A DNA stretch of 64,000 nucleotides from a virus (lineage: Duplodnaviria > Caudoviricetes). Where the stretch lies: the IMG/VR virus record IMGVR_UViG_3300011008_000999; one strand, 5' to 3'. Below the pieces are notes generated by a model. That model was not told the DNA's origin. It saw nothing but the letters and a program-made list of their open reading frames with translations, and ran no database searches. The translations under genes were made by a program, and so were the position numbers. Of the stretch, positions 35,831 through 64,000 are shown piece by piece. Numbering within the stretch: position 1 is the first letter of the stretch; each line of letters starts with the position of its first letter.

Positions 35831-35946
35831 TAGAGCGAGTTGGATTCGAACCAACGATTGGCTGTTTCCCTTGAATTAGGTAGCGGTTAAAATCACAAAA
35901 ATGATTCATTTTTATGACAGCTGCCTTCCCACTTGGCTATCGCTCT
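35831..35946 (-). ncRNA. tRNA scaffold with handle insert replacing anticodon loop
   Basis: AGAGCGA/TCGCTCT acceptor, D and T arms; GCTGT/ACAGC stem encloses AATCAT-TTTT-GTGATT-TTAACCGCTA. Confidence 0.75.
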
Positions 35947-49502: not shown

Positions 49503-49726
49503 ATTACTGCCTCCTTAAGTGTAAATAGTTAGTACGACGACTAACTATTTTAAAACGAACTATGTTAATTGTAAAAGACCACTCCTAAGGTTGCAACTAG
49601 AGGCATCATCACCGCTTATAAAGTGTCTATGAATAAATCTAGAATCATCATAGGCAAGCAATATAAGGAAGGTACTTCTTACAGCCGCTAAACTGTTGTA
49701 ATTCCTCTACTTAAGAGTGGTCAAAT

Positions 49727-49860
49727 AGAGATGGTAGGAATCGAACCTACAATTCTACACTATATACACATACATTCGACTTACTAGTATATCAAATATA
49801 TGTTTTTGATGTATATAGAACGAGATCACATCCGGCGTCTTCCTATTCCGCCACATCTCT
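49727..49860 (-). ncRNA. Non-canonical tRNA-like RNA (Leu-type D arm, long hairpin)
   Basis: AGAGATG/CATCTCT, GGCGGAATAGGAAGACGC, T-arm. Confidence 0.65.
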
Positions 49861-51065: not shown

Positions 51066-51189
51066 GAAGGATGGTAGGACTCGAACCTACAGTGTACCGG
51101 CTCCCTAAGCATTAGAATTTTGGTTGCTGTCTTTATCACGAAAATGATAGTGTCAAAACGGCGCGTCTGCCAATTCCGCCACATCCTTC
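51066..51189 (-). ncRNA. Leu-type tRNA scaffold with handle insert in anticodon arm
   Basis: TATCAT-TTTC-GTGATA-AAGACAGCAA inside the arm. Confidence 0.75.
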
Positions 51190-51191
51190 AA

Positions 51192-51315
51192 CGACTGAGG
51201 AAGGAATCGAACCTTCACCTTTTCCGTGACAGGGAAATTTATTTAAGTTTGTTTGCTGTCTAAATCACGGTGATGATTCTGAAATATAAATATGCTTCCA
51301 TTACACCACTCGGCC
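51192..51315 (-). ncRNA. tRNA-Asp(GTC) with about 50-nt handle insert between D arm and anticodon stem
   Basis: AATCAT-CACC-GTGATT-TAGACAGCAA, then intact TTTCC-CTGTCAC-GGAAA. Confidence 0.75.
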
Positions 51316-51360
51316 AAATTTTATTTAATTGTCAAGTTGCTGCTGAATAATTCAGCGAAT

Positions 51361-51472
51361 TGCAGGAAATGGAATCGAACCATTGTCTCGTCCTATATGT
51401 GTGGAATATAAGATAGCTGTTAAAATCACGAAAATGATTCATTTTACGCGCTCTACCACTAAGCTATCCTGC
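51361..51472 (-). ncRNA. tRNA scaffold with handle insert replacing anticodon loop
   Basis: AATCAT-TTTC-GTGATT-TTAACAGCTA. Confidence 0.75.
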
Positions 51473-51473
51473 G

Positions 51474-57266: not shown

Positions 57267-57350
57267 AGGACGCATTGTTTACGGATTTGAACCGTGTGAT
57301 TTGAGTTGCAGTCAAATATTTTACCAAAATTAGTTTGCTGTGAACGTCCC
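57267..57350 (-). ncRNA. D/anticodon(GCA)/T arms mounted on an ACAGCAA handle instead of an acceptor stem
   Basis: GGGACGT-TCACAGCAA...TTTGA-CTGCAAC-TCAAA...ACGG-TTCAAAT-CCGT...GCGTCCT. Confidence 0.7.
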
Positions 57351-57859: not shown

Positions 57860-57931
57860 CTGGCCGTGAAGGACTTGAACCTTCAATCTCCTGAGTCAGA
57901 GTCAGGCGCCTTACCGTTTGGCTAACGGCCA
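57860..57931 (-). tRNA. tRNA-Gln(CTG)
   Basis: Cloverleaf. Confidence 0.9.
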
Positions 57932-57940
57932 ATATTTTAA

Positions 57941-58040
57941 CAGGTATGGAAGGATTCGAACCTATATCGCATGAGTTTGGTTTCTCATGTATTCTAACCA
58001 AAGTATGAAGCGCTTAGACATACATTAAACTAAATTCCTA
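57941..58040 (-). ncRNA. tRNA-like RNA with hairpin inserted in D loop and 8-nt AAACCAAA loop
   Basis: GTATG..CATAC insert; CATGAG/CTCATG stem; T-loop. Confidence 0.55.
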
Positions 58041-58728: not shown

Positions 58729-59420
58729 CTTACCACTATAACTTTCATTACCGTCTCAAACAAAACGTTTGTGGTCTGGACTAGTTCTTCACCATATCAT
58801 TTCTGACTTAGGTGCGACGTGTATAGTCTCTACACATTTAGGTTACTAAACCATTTAGCTCGCCATTCCCATACAGCTTTAACTATCTGTAAGGCTTTGT
58901 GATTTAGCGCCGTTCTCATCTAGGAGTTTCCTACCTAGTGACTCATTTGTCTTTCCTCTTCTAAAACGATAAGTTTTAGTTAAAGCATGGCAATTTGGAC
59001 AAATTAACCTTAGATTTTCTAATCTATGATCAGTTGGATTGCCATTTATGTGATCTAATTCACAAGGTGTATATGTTGCACCTTCTGGTTTTTTATTCCA
59101 ACCACATAATTGACATTTGTCCTCAAAATATCCTTCATTTATAAGTCTAATTTTTAACTTATATGTTTGATAATGAGGATATTTACCAGCTAGTATATCA
59201 GAGGTTTCAATGTGTCTAGAAGATAACTTTTTAGTACCTTTTCCACCTTGATTTTTAATTTTGTGGAATATACCTAACGCCTTTGCTTTCGCAATATACG
59301 TTCGATATGACATACCGCATAATTTACTAGCTTGAGCCACGGTTTGACAGTTTTCAGTGATTTTTATGAACTCTTCATCAGTAATACCAGATTTGTTCAT
59401 ATTATCACCTACTTTCTTTT
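58729..59420 (-). ncRNA. Group I intron in anticodon (U^AA)
   Basis: Splice after U, terminal G; P1 GACUU|A...UGAGUC with U-G pair; P7 elements GTAGAGACTA and GAAGAACTAGTCC. Confidence 0.9.
58879..59400 (-). CDS. Intron-encoded HNH homing endonuclease
   Basis: CQLC...ELDHING..DHRLENLRLICPNCHA. Confidence 0.9.
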   Translation of the reverse strand: MNKSGITDEEFIKITENCQTVAQASKLCGMSYRTYIAKAKALGIFHKIKNQGGKGTKKLSSRHIETSDILAGKYPHYQTYKLKIRLINEGYFEDKCQLCGWNKKPEGATYTPCELDHINGNPTDHRLENLRLICPNCHALTKTYRFRRGKTNESLGRKLLDENGAKSQSLTDS

Positions 59421-59492: not shown

Positions 59493-59586
59493 TTAAGCAG
59501 CTACAGTAACTGCTGCATAACGATCACTACAGATCACATCAAGCATTGCTTCGAGAGGTGTCTTATTCATTCCCTGAACTAAGTTC
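59493..59586 (-). pseudogene. C-terminal remnant of a DUF2828/vWA (Ro60/TROVE-like) gene
   Basis: NLVQGMNKTPLEAMLDVICSDRYAAVTVAA* followed by hairpin; family recognised from memory of the TP..ML....S.RY ending. Confidence 0.55.
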
Positions 59587-59733
59587 GTGAACTACTCGGC
59601 AACAAGTTACCGAGCTTCTTGCTTCAACCACTACTGCTAGGCTACACGTAACCGTGTTGGCTAGTCTTACACAGTGTCCACAAGCGTATAAGTTCGGGCA
59701 GTTCCTGCCCTACTATAAGAATAAGAGATGGAT

Positions 59734-60858
59734 TTAGGCTACTTGTAGTAATCTGAGTCCTTCATTTTTTATGTTGATAGCTGCATTGTAGTCTCTATCT
59801 ATAGTTAGACCACAATCACATTTATATATTCTATCAGCAAGGGTAAGCTTTCTTTGGCTTCCGCAACAGCTACATAGCTGTGAGGAAGGATACCATTTAT
59901 CTACTTTGATAAAGTATTTTCCTCTATCAAAAAGCTTGTACTCTAGCATATTTAGAAATAATCCATAGTCGTTATCTAAAGTAGCCTTTCCATTTCCAAA
60001 GCCCTTATTAGACATAGCTCTCATATCAAGGCTTTCTACACATACAACGTCATACTGATTGGCTATCTCAGTAGAGAGTTTATGTAAATTATCTAGTCTT
60101 TGGTTAGTGATGTGTCTATGGATTTTATTTACTTTCTTTAATTGTTTTAGATAGTTATTGGATTTCTTTTCATTCTTTTTAGAACCTATTTTACGAGAAA
60201 GTTTACGTTGTTCTTTAGCGAGCTTTTTATGACTTTCTCGATAGTATTTATGATTGGAACCTATATTTCCATTACTATCCATATACAAACCATCAGATTT
60301 ATAATCTAAGCCGATTGCATTATCTGATTTAGTAACTTTAGTAATAACTCTGTCAAATTCAAAGAGAATAGAAATATAAAAACTACCATCACTTTCTTGA
60401 GATACAGTAGCAGACTTGATTATCCAGTCAGCCTCTGGCTGTCTATGGATAACTGCCTTCACCTTACCTATCTTAGGTAACTTGATGTACTTATCATCTA
60501 TGATTGCCACCGTACCTTTTTGATTATTAGTAGTATAGGACTTTCTAGTATGCTTTCTTGACTTGAATTTAGGAAAGCCATTACGTTTTTTACGTTTCTT
60601 GTCAAAGAAAGCCTTATAGGAAGACTGTAAGTTGATTTGTACATTGGCGAGAGCCAAAGAATCAACTTCCTTCAAGAATGTATAGTCTTTCTTGTACTGT
60701 GCAGGCGTAGTCTGAAAACTCTCGCCTGTAGCTTTGTAATAAGCAATCTTATCTACGAGCATAAGATTCCACACCTTACGGCAACAGCCGAAGGTCTGTG
60801 CAAACTTATCAGCTTGTTCAGTTGTAGGATATACTCGATACTTGATTGCTTTATTCAT
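59734..60858 (-). CDS. tnpB: RNA-guided endonuclease TnpB
   Basis: GLDY, VESL, DRDYNAA; Zn finger. Confidence 0.95.
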   Translation of the reverse strand: MNKAIKYRVYPTTEQADKFAQTFGCCRKVWNLMLVDKIAYYKATGESFQTTPAQYKKDYTFLKEVDSLALANVQINLQSSYKAFFDKKRKKRNGFPKFKSRKHTRKSYTTNNQKGTVAIIDDKYIKLPKIGKVKAVIHRQPEADWIIKSATVSQESDGSFYISILFEFDRVITKVTKSDNAIGLDYKSDGLYMDSNGNIGSNHKYYRESHKKLAKEQRKLSRKIGSKKNEKKSNNYLKQLKKVNKIHRHITNQRLDNLHKLSTEIANQYDVVCVESLDMRAMSNKGFGNGKATLDNDYGLFLNMLEYKLFDRGKYFIKVDKWYPSSQLCSCCGSQRKLTLADRIYKCDCGLTIDRDYNAAINIKNEGLRLLQVA

Positions 60859-61268
60859 AGCTGTACATTCTTTTGCCTTTCTATATATTTTAGGATGTTT
60901 TCCTCAGAGGTGGAGCCTATGGTTTCACAGAAGTAAGAGCCATTCCAAAGTTGACCTTTCCAAAGCATAGTTCTAATCTCAGGAAACTCTTTGAGTAATG
61001 TATTCCCACTAATGCCTTTGAGATACTTTACTATTTGAGTAACTGAAATCTTTGGTGGAGCAGATACAAAACAATGAACGTGGTCGCTTTCACCAACTTT
61101 GCAATCTACCACAGTAAAGCCTTTCTCAATACCTATCTCTTTTACTAACTCATAGAGTCTTTCAGCTATCTCAGGTTTGAGAACTTTCCTTCTGTATTTG
61201 ACACACCATACGATGTGATAATTGATATTGTAGACGCAGGTGCGTCCGTGAGTGTACTTGTTATTCAT
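60855..61268 (-). CDS. tnpA: Y1 HUH transposase
   Basis: YHIVWCVKYRR, DHVH, LKG.S, YIERQ. Confidence 0.95.
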   Translation of the reverse strand: MNNKYTHGRTCVYNINYHIVWCVKYRRKVLKPEIAERLYELVKEIGIEKGFTVVDCKVGESDHVHCFVSAPPKISVTQIVKYLKGISGNTLLKEFPEIRTMLWKGQLWNGSYFCETIGSTSEENILKYIERQKNVQL

Positions 61269-61416
61269 ACATATAGTATATATCTAATGTGTATCAATGT
61301 TAATATTTATGCTATTAGCTAATCATACATATAGTATAATAATTTAGGTTGAGAAAAACGGGCTTTCATCTCGGATACAAGTAACCGAGAATTCCCGCCC
61401 GAATTCTTAAAGGTGT

Positions 61417-62136
61417 TTGCTGTTTGAGTCACATGTATTTTGAGTCGTCCACTAAAGTAGGACCTCTCTAATTAAATGATTGACAAGATCTGTTAATAGG
61501 ATTTTTCGACGATCTTTATACTCGATTTCCTCGTACGTTGTGGACGTACAAACCAGACTTTACAGTCATCATCGTTAACATTTGATAATGTTTGCTGTAG
61601 TCAATCACAAAATGCAATTGTAAAGGTACGATACCTAAATGACGAGTTTAACAAGATAATTTTTTCGCATAAATTTTCTGTTGTTAATGTTTTGCAGTAA
61701 TCGTCACAAATAGGTGAGTTACTAAATGACTGACAAGGAACGTTTAATGGGATTTTTTGGTCGTTACCTATGCTACACCGTTTCCCGACATGTTAGGTAC
61801 ATGCCAACCTAATTTTTATTTACCTAAAATAAAATTAAGAAGATTTGCAATTGTATTGCTGTTAAGTCAGTCACGACTTGTAAAAAATATGATTGTCACG
61901 GACTCTTTCTCGGATTTTCTGGTGGCATACCGCTCTTTACCGTTTCCGGATAGATCATTTGAATCGGATCTTTTGGCTGATACTATCATGTTCCATTTCC
62001 GGATAGGTCGTTAGTCAGATTTTTAGTGACCTATCAGTATACATTTTCTGGATTGTTAAACAATCAGCTTTGGCACCTTTATCGTGCACATACTGTTATC
62101 ATCTTTAATAGAATGATTTGCTGTTAAGACAATCAC
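61417..62136 (-). repeat. Array of five handle-RNA units (one truncated)
   Basis: 61889..62136, 61726..61874, 61639..61707, 61476..61608, 61417..61432; covarying terminal helices plus AC(A/T)GCAA. Confidence 0.8.
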
Positions 62137-62232: not shown

Positions 62233-62488
62233 ATAATTTGACCCGTTGTTTTTCGGAATATAATTCCTAGTCAAGGAAAGTGGAATCATACTTTCAGTAA
62301 TAAGTTATGTATAAACCTGACACATTATACATAACTAGACTTCCGTCTACTCCACCACCTGATATTTCAATCAGGAATGTAAAATAACTTACATTTAAGA
62401 TGCGGTATAACAGAGTAAACTCTGCACGATACTTGATGCTACTAAATGCATTTATAAGCTTTGTAGTCATTCTATATCTATACCGCAA

Positions 62489-62564
62489 TTGCGGAGCCTG
62501 GGAGTCGAACCCAGTATCTCACAGGTTATGAGCCTGGAATGGTATTCCGTTCCACTCGCCCGCG
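62489..62564 (-). tRNA. Initiator-like tRNA-Met(CAT)
   Basis: C1:A72 mismatch; only two of the three G-C anticodon-stem pairs. Confidence 0.8.
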
Positions 62565-62730
62565 ATGAGAAGTATTAGGTCTTGATCCCAACGAGCTCGC
62601 CCACCTGCGAGTACTTCCCAGCGTATGAAGACTAATATATAATATTGGAGGTATTATAACAAGCTTCACTGACAAAAAGTAGCGCAATCGCTCTTCATAC
62701 GCAAACATCAATTTTTATCCTTTCGGATAG

Positions 62731-62843: not shown

Positions 62844-63727
62844 ACGCTGAGATAATTGGCGTTTGTACATAGCATCTATAGTCGTTGGAGACTATTTATC
62901 ACACAGTCGATTAGACTGTAGCTATGAATGGCACTAATCTTGAGAAGATTAGCAGACACTTACCAGAAGCTTTATAGATTTCATTTTGTCACATTCTTCC
63001 TTGCGGGATTCACAGCTTGCGGGCTGTTAGAGTTGCAACTACTCTTACTTCTCTCATGTATCACCTTGCGAGTTTTACATGCCACCATATTGCAGATGGA
63101 TAAGCCATTTTTCAGCTTTCTGGTCGGATGCACTTTTGCGATTTTTAATCAAATAATTTGGTTATTATATTAACTGTATAATCCAAATCCTATGAGGATA
63201 ATGTTTTCCATTCCATTGAACTACGAGGCATCCGTTTGGACACCAATACCTTTTGAGTACTGTCCATCCATCGTAATTCTGCTTGTCTTGTGTCGACTTA
63301 CTCGATTATTCTGAACCGCTCTTTCGATTAGAACCATCACATCCAATTCAATCCACCGAAGTGAATATCCTCTTCAGTCTCCGGAACTTCTCTTTCAAGT
63401 TGGATCCATCATAAAAGTAAATTTAGCACTTATTATATCCCTATAACTTGCACCAAAGATCTAACTACTGAGCTCTATTATTTCTAATAAAGAGAACATT
63501 TTCCATTGCTCTGTTTGCTTCGACCTCTCAATCACTTGACCGTTGAGGTTACGTTCAAACTAAGTAGTTTAGGTTTTCCGCTGTACTGTATTACTACAGT
63601 CGAGAAAGGTTTGGCTCCTTACTCTTTATCCCTGTTACCAGGTTTATCTAACGACCCGAAACCGACCGGTTATATTAAACAATCAAATTTTAGGGCCAGA
63701 ACCGAAGTTCTAGTTCAACTTGATTGA
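62844..63727 (-). ncRNA. GOLLD-like giant structured RNA
   Basis: About 880 nt without a credible ORF; many GCAA/GAAA/TTCG hairpins, CTCAAAAGG, 3' ACGCC..ATCTCAGCGT; beside tRNA genes. Confidence 0.7.
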
Positions 63728-63763: not shown

Positions 63764-63822
63764 ATGACTCGTTATATTTTTCACCCAATTGAAAATTTTT
63801 TAGTATTTGCTGACTAAGTCAC
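63764..63822 (-). ncRNA. Stand-alone handle RNA unit
   Basis: GTGACTT-AGTCAGCAA...TTTTCA-ATTGGG-TGAAAA...GAGTCAT. Confidence 0.7.
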
Positions 63823-64000
63823 ATTTGAATTTATTAATAATAAATAGCTCTTCGTTCTCATTTTCGATGAATATCAATCATATCTGATATAATCAATATT
63901 CATTACTCATTCGAATCGATATTGTTATCTTATCACAGTGTTTTTTGTTTGTAAATAGTTTTTTGAAAATTTTTTAATTTTTTCGAAGTTCTATATCAAA

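What the first reader, a model, noticed from the sequence alone, without database searches (positions are those of the whole stretch)
61417..62136. Array of RNAs sharing a covarying helix + ACAGCAA handle with variable cargo: candidate Y-RNA-like system
Seen (minus strand): units of form 5'-GTGAY(N)-N1-3-ACAGCAA-[about 35-220 nt variable cargo]-(N')RTCAT-3'. The terminal helices are GTGATTGTC/GACAATCAT (61889..62136), GTGACTGAC/GTCAGTCAT (61726..61874), GTGACGA/TCGTCAT (61639..61707, ACTGCAA), GTGATTGAC/GTCAATCAT (61476..61608) and GTGACTT/GAGTCAT (63764..63822, GTCAGCAA), plus a truncated unit at 61417..61432. Inner bases differ but stay paired, and each helix ends in G-U, pointing to selection on RNA structure. 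Known: bacterial Ro60/Rsr binds the end-paired stem of Y RNAs, whose other domain varies and is often tRNA-like. Inference: the handle is a protein-binding site that docks different cargo RNAs onto one protein.
Basis: partly seen in the sequence, partly recalled or inferred. Interest (0 to 1): 0.92.

Follow-up and report, generated by a model that had tools for sequence, protein, structure and literature searches.

The report
Orphaned Y-like RNA array in phage
A giant gut phage carries a row of small folded RNA genes that share one "handle", and in related phages this handle sits next to a gene for a Ro60-shaped RNA-binding protein; here a mobile element has deleted that gene, so this is an undescribed Y-RNA-like particle caught just after losing its protein.

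Summary
On the minus strand, 61407-62136 holds four complete units and one cut unit. Each has a terminal helix of 7-9 bp that opens with a G-U pair, then 0-3 nt, ACAGCAA (ACUGCAA in u3), and 35-220 nt of cargo. A sixth unit lies at 63764-63822.

The family is real. It is strand-specific, its helix covaries, and a covariance model built only from distant phages finds u3 and the 63764 unit significantly and u4 only weakly (E 0.33). It misses the 248-nt u1 and gives only a partial weak match inside u2.

The Y-RNA-like reading is supported. In 159 other phage and Lachnospiraceae loci the handle lies just upstream of a DUF2828/vWA gene, on the same strand. The predicted fold of that protein matches Ro60 over its whole length (Z 19.9).

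A sister phage 98.7% identical to this one has the complete fifth unit, a tRNA-Asp, a promoter and the intact gene. In the window an IS605 element replaces those 1600 bp, and only the last 32 codons remain. The complete genome has no other DUF2828 or TROVE gene.

The RNAs match no Rfam family at threshold and lack the Y-RNA Ro-binding motif. Their handle resembles Dictyostelium Class I RNAs but scores below threshold.

Binding is inferred, not shown. This scan has already found the same system in at least 83 other genomes, and I found no published description.

The parts
63764..63822 (-). Unit u0. 59-nt handle RNA with helix GUGACUU/GAGUCAU and core UCAGCAA. It is the first element after the candidate promoter.
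   Evidence: Sequence. Model R1, built from distant phages only, scores 18.7 bits, E 0.007. Orthologues are found in L004, L165 and L168.
61889..62136 (-). Unit u1. 248 nt, with a 9-bp terminal helix and CUUAACAGCAA. The cargo holds two copies of a clade-specific module (NGGAAA-hairpin-AAAAGAUCCN').
   Evidence: The orthologue in L165-L167 has a double compensatory change in the helix. The first module is invariant in four orthologues. R1 does not detect this unit, because the cargo is long.
61726..61874 (-). Unit u2. 149 nt, with a 9-bp terminal helix, CUUAACAGCAA and one copy of the cargo module.
   Evidence: (fold z -3.7).
61639..61707 (-). Unit u3. 69-nt mini unit with a 7-bp helix and core ACUGCAA.
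   Evidence: R1 scores 32.1 bits, E 1.2e-6, with exact ends. Orthologues carry ACAGCAA and the helix GUGACGAA/UUCGUCAU.
61476..61608 (-). Unit u4. 133 nt, with a 9-bp helix, ACAGCAA and one cargo module. A helix near the 3' end covaries.
   Evidence: R1 scores 12.6 bits, E 0.33, with exact ends. Three internal pairs change on both sides among four orthologues.
61407..61432 (-). The first 26 nt of unit u5 (GUGACUCAA-ACAGCAA...). It is cut off at the IS junction.
   Evidence: The sister phage has the whole 66-nt unit, L168:3737-3802, with helix GUGACUCA/UGAGUCAU (R1 33.5 bits). Homology ends at window 61407.
59592..61406 (-). IS200/IS605-family element with TnpA (60855-61268) and TnpB (59734-60858). 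It occupies the place of 1600 bp of the sister phage.
   Evidence: Pfam Y1_Tnp 2.6e-40. OrfB_IS605, HTH_OrfB_IS605 and Cas12f1-like TNB domains also match. The junctions come from blastn against L168.
59493..59591 (-). Remnant of the DUF2828/Ro60-like gene: its last 32 codons and the stop codon.
   Evidence: tblastn of P0015 residues 455-479 is 96% identical and is the only match in the genome. The C-terminus is the same as in P0001.
57267..57350 (-). It has the second handle type (GGGACGU.../...GCGUCCU) and ACAGCAA, and its cargo has an anticodon-arm-like hairpin and a T arm.
   Evidence: It is the best R1 hit in the window: 33.7 bits, E 4e-7.
51124..51429 (-). Three permuted (hairpin) handles set inside tRNA-shaped RNAs. 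The motifs lie at 51124-51139, 51253-51268 and 51414-51429.
   Evidence: The form is RUCAU-loop-GUGAY-N-ACAGCAA, or ACAGCUA at the third site.
63927..63955 (-). Candidate promoter (TTTACA, 17 nt, TG-TAAGAT) for the long noncoding operon: u0, GOLLD-like RNA, tRNAs and the array.
   Evidence: Consensus scan only. Such sites are not enriched over shuffles, and no terminator-like site lies inside the array.

Best explanation
The array is a row of genes for small structured RNAs of one family.

Anatomy. The 5' and 3' ends of each RNA pair in a 7-9 bp helix that opens with an invariant G-U pair. Positions 2-4 of the helix are nearly fixed (GUGA/UCAU here, GGGA/UCCU elsewhere), and the inner pairs covary. 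The helix is followed by the single-stranded motif (CUU)ACAGCAA. Together these form a common handle, and the rest of each RNA is a free cargo domain.

Expression. The units probably lie in one long noncoding transcript with a GOLLD-like RNA and tRNAs, and are cut out of it.

Partner. The handle is most likely the binding site of the phage's Ro60-like ring protein (DUF2828 + vWA). Normally its gene follows the array. The particle would work like Ro60 with Y RNAs: one protein, several RNAs, and cargoes that recruit or mimic other RNAs or proteins. In other phages the cargoes are anticodon arms and T arms. Here three long units (u1, u2, u4) carry a clade-specific module and u3 has a short cargo without it.

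State in this phage. The protein gene, the 3' part of unit 5, a tRNA-Asp and a promoter were recently replaced by an IS605 element. The RNAs are therefore orphans, unless a DUF2828 protein from the host or a prophage serves them.

Shown: the anatomy, covariation, strand specificity, the genomic association, the Ro60 fold and the deletion. Inferred: binding, processing and biological role.
For: - Motif enrichment in the window.
- Association with DUF2828 genes. There are 180 motifs on the gene strand and 0 on the other in 79 viral loci, all within 1.3 kb upstream, and 73 against 1 in 80 Lachnospiraceae genome loci. A unit finder gives 483 forward against 25 reverse.
- Helix. 78% of open-type motifs have a partner against 2.1% in shuffles. 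Covariation is 0.416 against 0.18, with 0 of 500 shuffles reaching it. Orthologues show compensatory changes.
- Independent model. R1 holds no sequence of this phage clade. It finds u3 (E 1e-6), u0 (E 0.007), 57267-57350 (E 4e-7) and, weakly, u4 with exact ends. In three related jumbo phages it gives 16 hits on the gene strand and 1 weak hit on the other.
- Genome scale. In about 450 Mb of 151 genomes, all 5 hits lie directly upstream of a DUF2828 gene, and none of 132 DUF2828-negative genomes has a hit.
- Protein. Pfam finds DUF2828 + DUF7788/vWA. The model has pLDDT 85.7. The top 13 Foldseek hits are all Ro60. VIA gives Z 19.9-12.7 for Ro60 chains, against 8.6 for the next fold.
- Synteny and deletion.
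- Precedent. Y-like RNA genes lie directly upstream of the Ro60 gene in Thermus phage phiLo (PMC12135203) and near Ro60 in more than 250 bacteria and phages (PMC4201824).
Against: - No binding or expression data exist.
- The long-cargo units score poorly with the model: u1 is not found, u2 gives only a partial weak match (E 3.2), and u4 has E 0.33.
- Single helices in the window are not individually significant.
- Only 3 of 19 DUF2828-positive genomes in the sample had model hits under strict filters. Many family members may therefore use other RNAs, or none.
- In Sarcina sp. DSM 11001, units sit in tRNA arrays on contigs with no DUF2828 gene within 10 kb.
- This complete phage genome has no partner gene, no RtcB and no RNA ligase of family PF09414. 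The RNAs may therefore be dispensable or work without the protein.
- There is no sequence likeness to the known Ro-binding motifs.
Confidence: 0.65

Rival explanations
1. The units are cis-acting processing or stability elements of phage tRNA operons. Host RNases would recognise them, or they would act as insulating structures between tRNAs, with no dedicated protein partner. On this reading the nearness to DUF2828 only reflects that this gene sits at the edge of tRNA arrays.
For: The units lie inside tRNA arrays here and in Sarcina sp. DSM 11001, where no DUF2828 gene lies within 10 kb. The window phage is complete without the protein.
Against: An invariant single-stranded ACAGCAA and fixed end pairs point to sequence-specific recognition. 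Hits lie directly upstream of DUF2828 in bacterial genomes and nowhere else in about 450 Mb. The same handle is inserted as a hairpin inside tRNA-shaped RNAs, which makes little sense for a spacer.
Confidence: 0.1
2. The handle is mainly an autoregulatory leader. The DUF2828 protein would bind a handle in its own 5' UTR to control its translation, and the other copies would be duplicates.
For: In many loci the last unit ends 15-250 nt before the start codon, and sometimes it abuts the ribosome-binding site.
Against: In this clade a tRNA-Asp, a hairpin followed by a T run, and a promoter-like site separate the array from the gene. There are five to eight copies with conserved and different cargoes, some downstream of the gene. 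This reading still requires the protein to bind the handle, so it adds to the main explanation more than it competes with it.
Confidence: 0.07
3. The RNAs act on their own as decoys or sponges for host tRNA-directed enzymes, for example anticodon nucleases or modification enzymes. The handle would only give stability.
For: Mini units in other phages carry anticodon-arm look-alikes with 7-nt loops CUNNNAA (GUU, GCU, UUU, UCU, GAA) and T arms. The unit at 57267-57350 has both.
Against: The four units of this array have no T loop and no anticodon-like arm. This reading does not explain the tie to the Ro60-like gene.
Confidence: 0.1
4. In this particular phage the array is a functionless relic. 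The units have not yet decayed because the partner gene was lost very recently.
For: The window is 98.7% identical to the sister phage, which keeps the gene. A second deletion removed another unit together with a tRNA. There are no differences in handle helices or cores, but only 34 differences in 2594 nt in all, so there has been too little time for decay to show.
Against: DUF2828 genes are common in Lachnospiraceae genomes (19 of 151), so a host or prophage copy could serve the RNAs. This concerns the present state of the array, not what the elements are.
Confidence: 0.3

Closest known systems
Ro60/Rsr with Y RNAs: metazoan Y RNA (Rfam RF00019), bacterial and phage YrlA/YrlB (RF02553; Chen et al. 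2014, PMC4201824), and Thermus phage phiLo Ro60 with Yrl1/Yrl2 (PMC12135203)
   Same: - A ring protein with the TROVE-plus-vWA architecture (fold match).
- Several small RNA genes next to its gene on the same strand.
- RNAs closed by pairing of their 5' and 3' ends, with a conserved protein-side module and a variable module that is often tRNA-like.
- Occurrence in phages with tRNA arrays.
   Different: - Pfam files the protein under DUF2828/DUF7788, not TROVE (no PF05731 hit). It has 10-17% identity to solved Ro60 chains.
- The RNA has neither GGUCCGA nor GNCGAAN0-1G, and it does not match the Rfam Y-RNA models.
- The stem is short (7-9 bp) and opens with G-U. The conserved element is a single-stranded ACAGCAA beside it.
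- Cargo length ranges from 35 to 220 nt.
Class I RNAs of dictyostelid social amoebae (Rfam RF01414; Kjellin et al. 2021, PMC7919456)
   Same: - An invariant 5' G.
- A short end-to-end stem whose sequence covaries.
- Directly after the stem, the motif CUUACAGCAA. This is the consensus shown in the RF01414 alignments.
- A variable remainder, about 60 nt for mini units, and many differing copies per genome.
   Different: - Scores are below Rfam's threshold: 21.6 and 22.9 bits against 41.5. A whole-genome search is not significant.
- The phage stem opens with G-U rather than G-C.
- Three of the units here are 133-248 nt long.
- The gene context is bacterial-virus, with no DUSE promoter.
- The only shown direct binder in Dictyostelium is the RRM protein Rnp1A, not a Ro60-like protein.
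tRNA-like domains and tRNA mimics in phage tRNA arrays
   Same: They lie among phage tRNA genes. Other family members carry T arms and anticodon-arm look-alikes, and three copies in this window sit inside tRNA-shaped RNAs.
   Different: The four array units are not called as tRNA by ARAGORN or Rfam and have no T loop.

Membership tests
Y RNA (Rfam RF00019 / YrlA RF02553) | Encoded next to a Ro60/TROVE gene | tested here: met
   The sister phage L168 and relatives L001 and L165 have the array directly upstream of a gene for a protein with the Ro60 fold. In the window itself that gene is deleted. The protein is DUF2828-type, not Pfam TROVE.
Y RNA (Rfam RF00019 / YrlA RF02553) | 5' and 3' ends pair in a stem | tested here: met
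   7-9 bp terminal helices, with family-level covariation.
Y RNA (Rfam RF00019 / YrlA RF02553) | Ro60-binding motif GGUCCGA or GNCGAAN0-1G (PMC4201824) | tested here: not met
   Neither motif is present in u0-u4.
Y RNA (Rfam RF00019 / YrlA RF02553) | Match to the Rfam covariance models | tested here: not met
   No Y_RNA or YrlA hit, even at E up to 10.
Y RNA (Rfam RF00019 / YrlA RF02553) | Physical association with the Ro60-type protein | not testable with these tools
   Needs RIP or EMSA.
Dictyostelium Class I RNA (RF01414) | Conserved 5' G and a short covarying stem joining the ends | tested here: met
   G1 is invariant in 38 of 38 distant units, and 6 of 9 pairs covary.
Dictyostelium Class I RNA (RF01414) | Conserved motif next to the 5' strand (model consensus CUUACAGCAA) | tested here: met
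   u1 and u2 have CUUAACAGCAA. Mini units in other phages have CUUACAGCAA.
Dictyostelium Class I RNA (RF01414) | Score at or above Rfam's gathering threshold (41.5 bits) | tested here: not met
   21.6 bits (u1) and 22.9 bits (L024:4893-4969). The genome-wide search has a best E of 0.08, at another site.
Dictyostelium Class I RNA (RF01414) | Length 42-65 nt | tested here: inconclusive
   u0 is 59 nt and u3 is 69 nt, but u4, u2 and u1 are 133, 149 and 248 nt.
Ro60 / TROVE protein (partner in the sister phage) | Match to Pfam TROVE (PF05731) | tested here: not met
   Only PF11443, PF25043 and a weak VWA_2 match at E up to 0.1. No PDB sequence match.
Ro60 / TROVE protein (partner in the sister phage) | Helical-repeat ring plus C-terminal vWA domain | tested here: met
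   AlphaFold2 pLDDT 85.7. Foldseek 1yvr E 4e-7. VIA 2i91_A Z 19.9, 414 residues aligned, rmsd 4.6.
IS200/IS605 | Y1 transposase TnpA plus TnpB | tested here: met
   Pfam Y1_Tnp 2.6e-40. OrfB_IS605 and TNB domains also match.

The most novel reading that the evidence does not exclude
The phage handle RNAs and the Dictyostelium Class I RNAs are one ancient RNA family, and DUF2828-type Ro60-like proteins are their shared, so far unrecognised protein partner. This would define a third branch of Ro60/Y-RNA particles that spans phages, giant viruses and amoebae, and it would give a function to an enigmatic eukaryotic RNA class. [quoted passage not shown]
Probability: 0.12. Interest if true: 0.92.

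Novelty: new variant of a known kind. Interest (0 to 1): 0.72.

Why it matters
Ro60 and its Y RNAs are a classic RNA quality-control particle. Its bacterial and phage forms are known only for proteins recognisable as TROVE. Here a large protein family labelled "unknown function" (more than 6500 relatives in one search) turns out to have the Ro60 shape. It travels with its own RNA family, which is in no RNA database and whose cargo domains range from tRNA pieces to new modules. That widens the Ro60/Y-RNA principle and points to an RNA-based function in the tRNA islands of gut phages.

This window adds a natural experiment. Two phages are 98.7% identical, and only one has the protein gene, so the role of the particle can be tested directly.

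Tried and rejected
- Rfam at gathering and at E up to 10 gave no family for the units. It gave only a sub-threshold Class I RNA hit, plus chance snoRNA-like hits.
- A GenBank phage search with the region found only tRNA matches.
- The exact 19-mer scan of IMG/VR gave one true relative and two chance hits in capsid-like coding DNA.
- My first helix searches with G-U allowed were too permissive. I replaced them with a Watson-Crick test against shuffles.
- The positions 1-7 table is circular, because pairing there was required by the finder. I do not use it.
- The long-cargo module (NGGAAA...AAAAGAUCCN') was not found outside the jumbo-phage clade.
- Genes next to DUF2828 in smaller phages (PP2C phosphatase, protein kinase, portal) gave no common functional theme.
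- RtcB and PF09414 RNA ligase are absent from this genome, so I dropped an RNA-repair reading for this phage.
- The promoter and terminator scan was no better than shuffles.
- A coding reading was rejected. The small ORFs over the units are not conserved, while helices and modules are.
- A DNA-level reading (operator or att site) was rejected, because the invariant G-U would be an A-C mismatch on the other strand.
- I could not test whether Dictyostelium has a DUF2828 protein. No tool here holds named eukaryotic proteins.

Full report
SETTING. The window is the reverse complement of 143027-207026 of a complete 331,944-bp phage genome with direct terminal repeats. It carries about 41 tRNA genes and a tmRNA on the minus strand. 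Relatives of its DUF2828-type protein gene lie in Lachnospiraceae genomes and gut or rumen viromes.

OBSERVATION.
- u1, 61889-62136, 248 nt
- u2, 61726-61874, 149 nt
- u3, 61639-61707, 69 nt
- u4, 61476-61608, 133 nt
- a stub starting at 61432
- u0, 63764-63822, 59 nt

Each unit begins with GUGAY and ends with RUCAU. The ends pair over 7-9 bp, and the first pair is G-U. After 0-3 nt comes ACAGCAA (ACUGCAA in u3, UCAGCAA in u0). The pattern occurs 6 times in the window against 0.14 expected. In the whole genome it is found only here, in three hairpin-permuted copies inside tRNA-shaped RNAs at 51124-51429, and at one likely chance site. Taken one at a time the helices are not rare by chance if G-U pairs are allowed, so I tested pairing on relatives.

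RELATIVES AND THE LOST GENE. An exact scan of IMG/VR found a 394-kb phage (L001) with the same array, followed by a tRNA-Asp, a promoter-like site and a 487-codon gene. That protein (P0001) is Pfam DUF2828 + DUF7788/vWA.

A closer sister (L168, from a 378-kb contig) is 98.7% identical to window 64000-61407. It has a complete fifth unit (66 nt, GUGACUCA/UGAGUCAU), the tRNA-Asp, the promoter and the intact gene. In the window these 1600 bp are replaced by an IS200/IS605 element at 59592-61406 with TnpA and TnpB. Homology resumes at 59591. Only the last 32 codons and the stop of the gene remain (59591-59493). This is the only DUF2828 match in the genome, and there is no TROVE gene either.

A second segment of the sister, holding a tRNA and one more mini unit, is also missing from the window. 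The 34 differences between the two phages over 2594 nt spare all handle helices and cores, but they are too few to show selection.

ASSOCIATION WITH THE PROTEIN GENE.
- I fetched 79 IMG/VR loci and 80 genome loci (Lachnospiraceae and allies) through an alignment of DUF2828 proteins only about 50-54% identical to P0001. The strict motif occurs 180 times on the gene strand and never on the other strand in the viral loci, always within 1.3 kb upstream. In the genome loci the counts are 73 and 1.
- A finder for whole units gives 483 on the gene strand and 25 on the other.
- In 151 sampled genomes of one family, a covariance model of the unit (R1) hits 3 genomes. All 5 hits are within 600 nt upstream of a DUF2828 gene. 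19 genomes have the gene, and none of the 132 without it has a hit.
- Sensitivity is low, at 3 of 19. In one genome, units sit in tRNA arrays on contigs without the gene. The tie is therefore strong but not absolute.

RNA STRUCTURE.
- Of 187 distinct open-type 5' motifs, 78% have a Watson-Crick partner of 7 bp or more (first pair G-U) within 300 nt, against 2.1% in shuffles. For 9 bp the figures are 18% and 0.1%.
- On a MAFFT alignment of 38 mini units from distant loci, six of nine helix pairs change on both sides. Pair 2 is U-A 21 against G-C 17, and pair 5 is C-G 27 against U-A 11. The covariation score is 0.416 against 0.18 in shuffles (0 of 500 reach it) and at most 0.144 when the partner is slid. 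These units were chosen for pairing, so the percentage paired is circular, but the pattern of pair types is not.
- G1-U is invariant, which places the selection on this RNA strand.
- Orthologues of u1 differ by a double compensatory change in the helix. Orthologues of u4 show three compensatory pairs in an internal helix. A module UCGGAAAUGG...CCAAAAGAUCCGA is invariant in four otherwise diverged u1 orthologues.
- Model R1, built without any sequence of this clade, finds 57267-57350 (33.7 bits), u3 (32.1 bits), u0 (18.7 bits) and u4 with exact ends (12.6 bits, E 0.33). It misses the 248-nt u1 and gives only a partial weak match inside u2 (61801-61874, E 3.2). In three related jumbo phages it gives 16 hits on the gene strand and one weak hit on the other.

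CARGO. In smaller phages the cargo is often an anticodon-arm look-alike with a 7-nt loop CUNNNAA, with various anticodons, and/or a T arm. The long units here (u1, u2, u4) instead carry one or two copies of a module found only in this clade. They have no T loop.

THE PROTEIN. An AlphaFold2 model of P0001 from 24 aligned relatives has mean pLDDT 85.7. The 13 best Foldseek matches in the PDB are all Ro60 structures, from frog, human, Deinococcus and Thermus phage phiLo, with E from 4e-7 to 1e-4. VIA-align gives Z 19.9 to 12.7 over 385-415 residues for Ro60 chains. The next fold, vWA alone, reaches 8.6. By sequence there is no TROVE or PDB match.

WHAT IS KNOWN.
[quoted passage not shown] Their Ro-binding element is GNCGAAN0-1G or GGUCCGA (PMC4201824).
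- Thermus phage phiLo has two Y-like RNA genes directly upstream of its Ro60 gene, and the protein binds them (PMC12135203).
- A review of jumbo phages notes TROVE proteins in a few of them (PMC7824862).
- "DUF2828" gave five papers, all eukaryote genome or omics studies (four on plants, one on a tardigrade); by title and abstract none concerns phages or protein function. No Rfam family matches the units.
- Following a lead from earlier notes of this scan, I compared the units with Dictyostelium Class I RNAs. The Rfam model's consensus is a 6-bp end stem followed by CUUACAGCAA. u1 and a mini unit align to it at 21.6 and 22.9 bits, below the threshold of 41.5. A genome-wide search is not significant.
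- The published definition of Class I RNAs fits the mini units in design: an invariant 5' G, a short covarying stem, an adjacent conserved motif, a variable rest and about 60 nt (PMC7919456). Homology is not shown.

MECHANISM. I consider it most likely (about 0.65) that these are the partner RNAs of the Ro60-like protein and are bound through the handle. What the particle does is open. This genome has no RtcB or RNA ligase, and the neighbours of the gene in other phages share no theme. The tRNA-piece cargoes elsewhere suggest a link to tRNA metabolism or to host tRNA-targeting defences, but that is inference. In this phage the RNAs are orphans, either relics of a very recent loss or served by a DUF2828 protein of the host or a prophage. 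Such genes are present in 19 of 151 sampled genomes.

STATUS. The same system has been noted many times in this scan on other DNA: 103 notes in at least 83 genomes. It was also noted at 51066-51473 of this genome. I found no published description. Particular to this window are the long-cargo units, the position of the array in an operon headed by a GOLLD-like RNA, and the natural knock-out of the protein gene.

Noticed in passing
window 62844-63279 (-), probably extending to about 63727: GOLLD-like RNA. It matches Rfam RF02032 over the full model at 93.1 bits, E 4.9e-24, below the gathering score of 150. It lies between u0 and tRNA-Pro, and no terminator-like site lies before the array, so it may head the same noncoding transcript.
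   Followed up: partly
window 58729-59416 (-): A 688-nt insert with an HNH endonuclease ORF (58879-59400) sits inside a tRNA-Leu gene. It is absent from the 98.7%-identical sister phage L168, where the flanks are contiguous, so this is a recent gain or loss.
   Followed up: partly
L168:6347-6802, against the window junction near 57914-57946: The sister phage has 456 nt that the window lacks. They hold a tRNA and a 66-nt mini handle unit (L168:6406-6471, R1 38.3 bits) whose hairpin looks like a Lys(UUU) anticodon arm. This is a second loss in the window phage that touches the same RNA family.
   Followed up: partly
window 62233-62729 (-): The stretch between tRNA-Pro and tRNA-Asn has no gene call. 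It carries 16 of the 34 differences from the sister phage and contains a T-arm-like GGTTCGACTCCC. It may be a fast-evolving tRNA-like RNA.
   Followed up: no
window 35831-35946, 49726-49860, 51066-51188 (-): The Rfam tRNA model matches with inserts of 45-65 nt, giving tRNA-shaped RNAs of 116-135 nt. The 51066-51188 match carries a hairpin-form handle, as does the neighbouring tRNA-model match at 51192-51266.
   Followed up: partly
L006-L164, for example L024:4821-4880, L120:2897-2952, L116:2762-2833: Mini units in smaller phages carry 5-bp hairpins with 7-nt loops of the form CU-NNN-AA, with different 'anticodons' (GCU, GUU, UUU, UCU, GAA). Others carry a T arm. They look like modular displays of tRNA pieces on the handle.
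   Followed up: partly
G002 (Sarcina sp. DSM 11001), loci L171-L173: Seven model hits lie inside three arrays of 12-28 tRNA genes on contigs with no DUF2828 gene within 10 kb. The genome has two DUF2828 genes on other contigs.
   Followed up: partly
L001:4358-5002 (-): The 394-kb relative has an RNA ligase gene (Pfam PF09414, 6.7e-28) inside its tRNA array, 2.3 kb downstream of the DUF2828 gene. The window phage has no such gene.
   Followed up: partly
literature: bioRxiv 10.1101/2020.04.05.026054, section 16: [quoted passage not shown] Whether it is DUF2828/Ro60-like could not be checked here.
   Followed up: no
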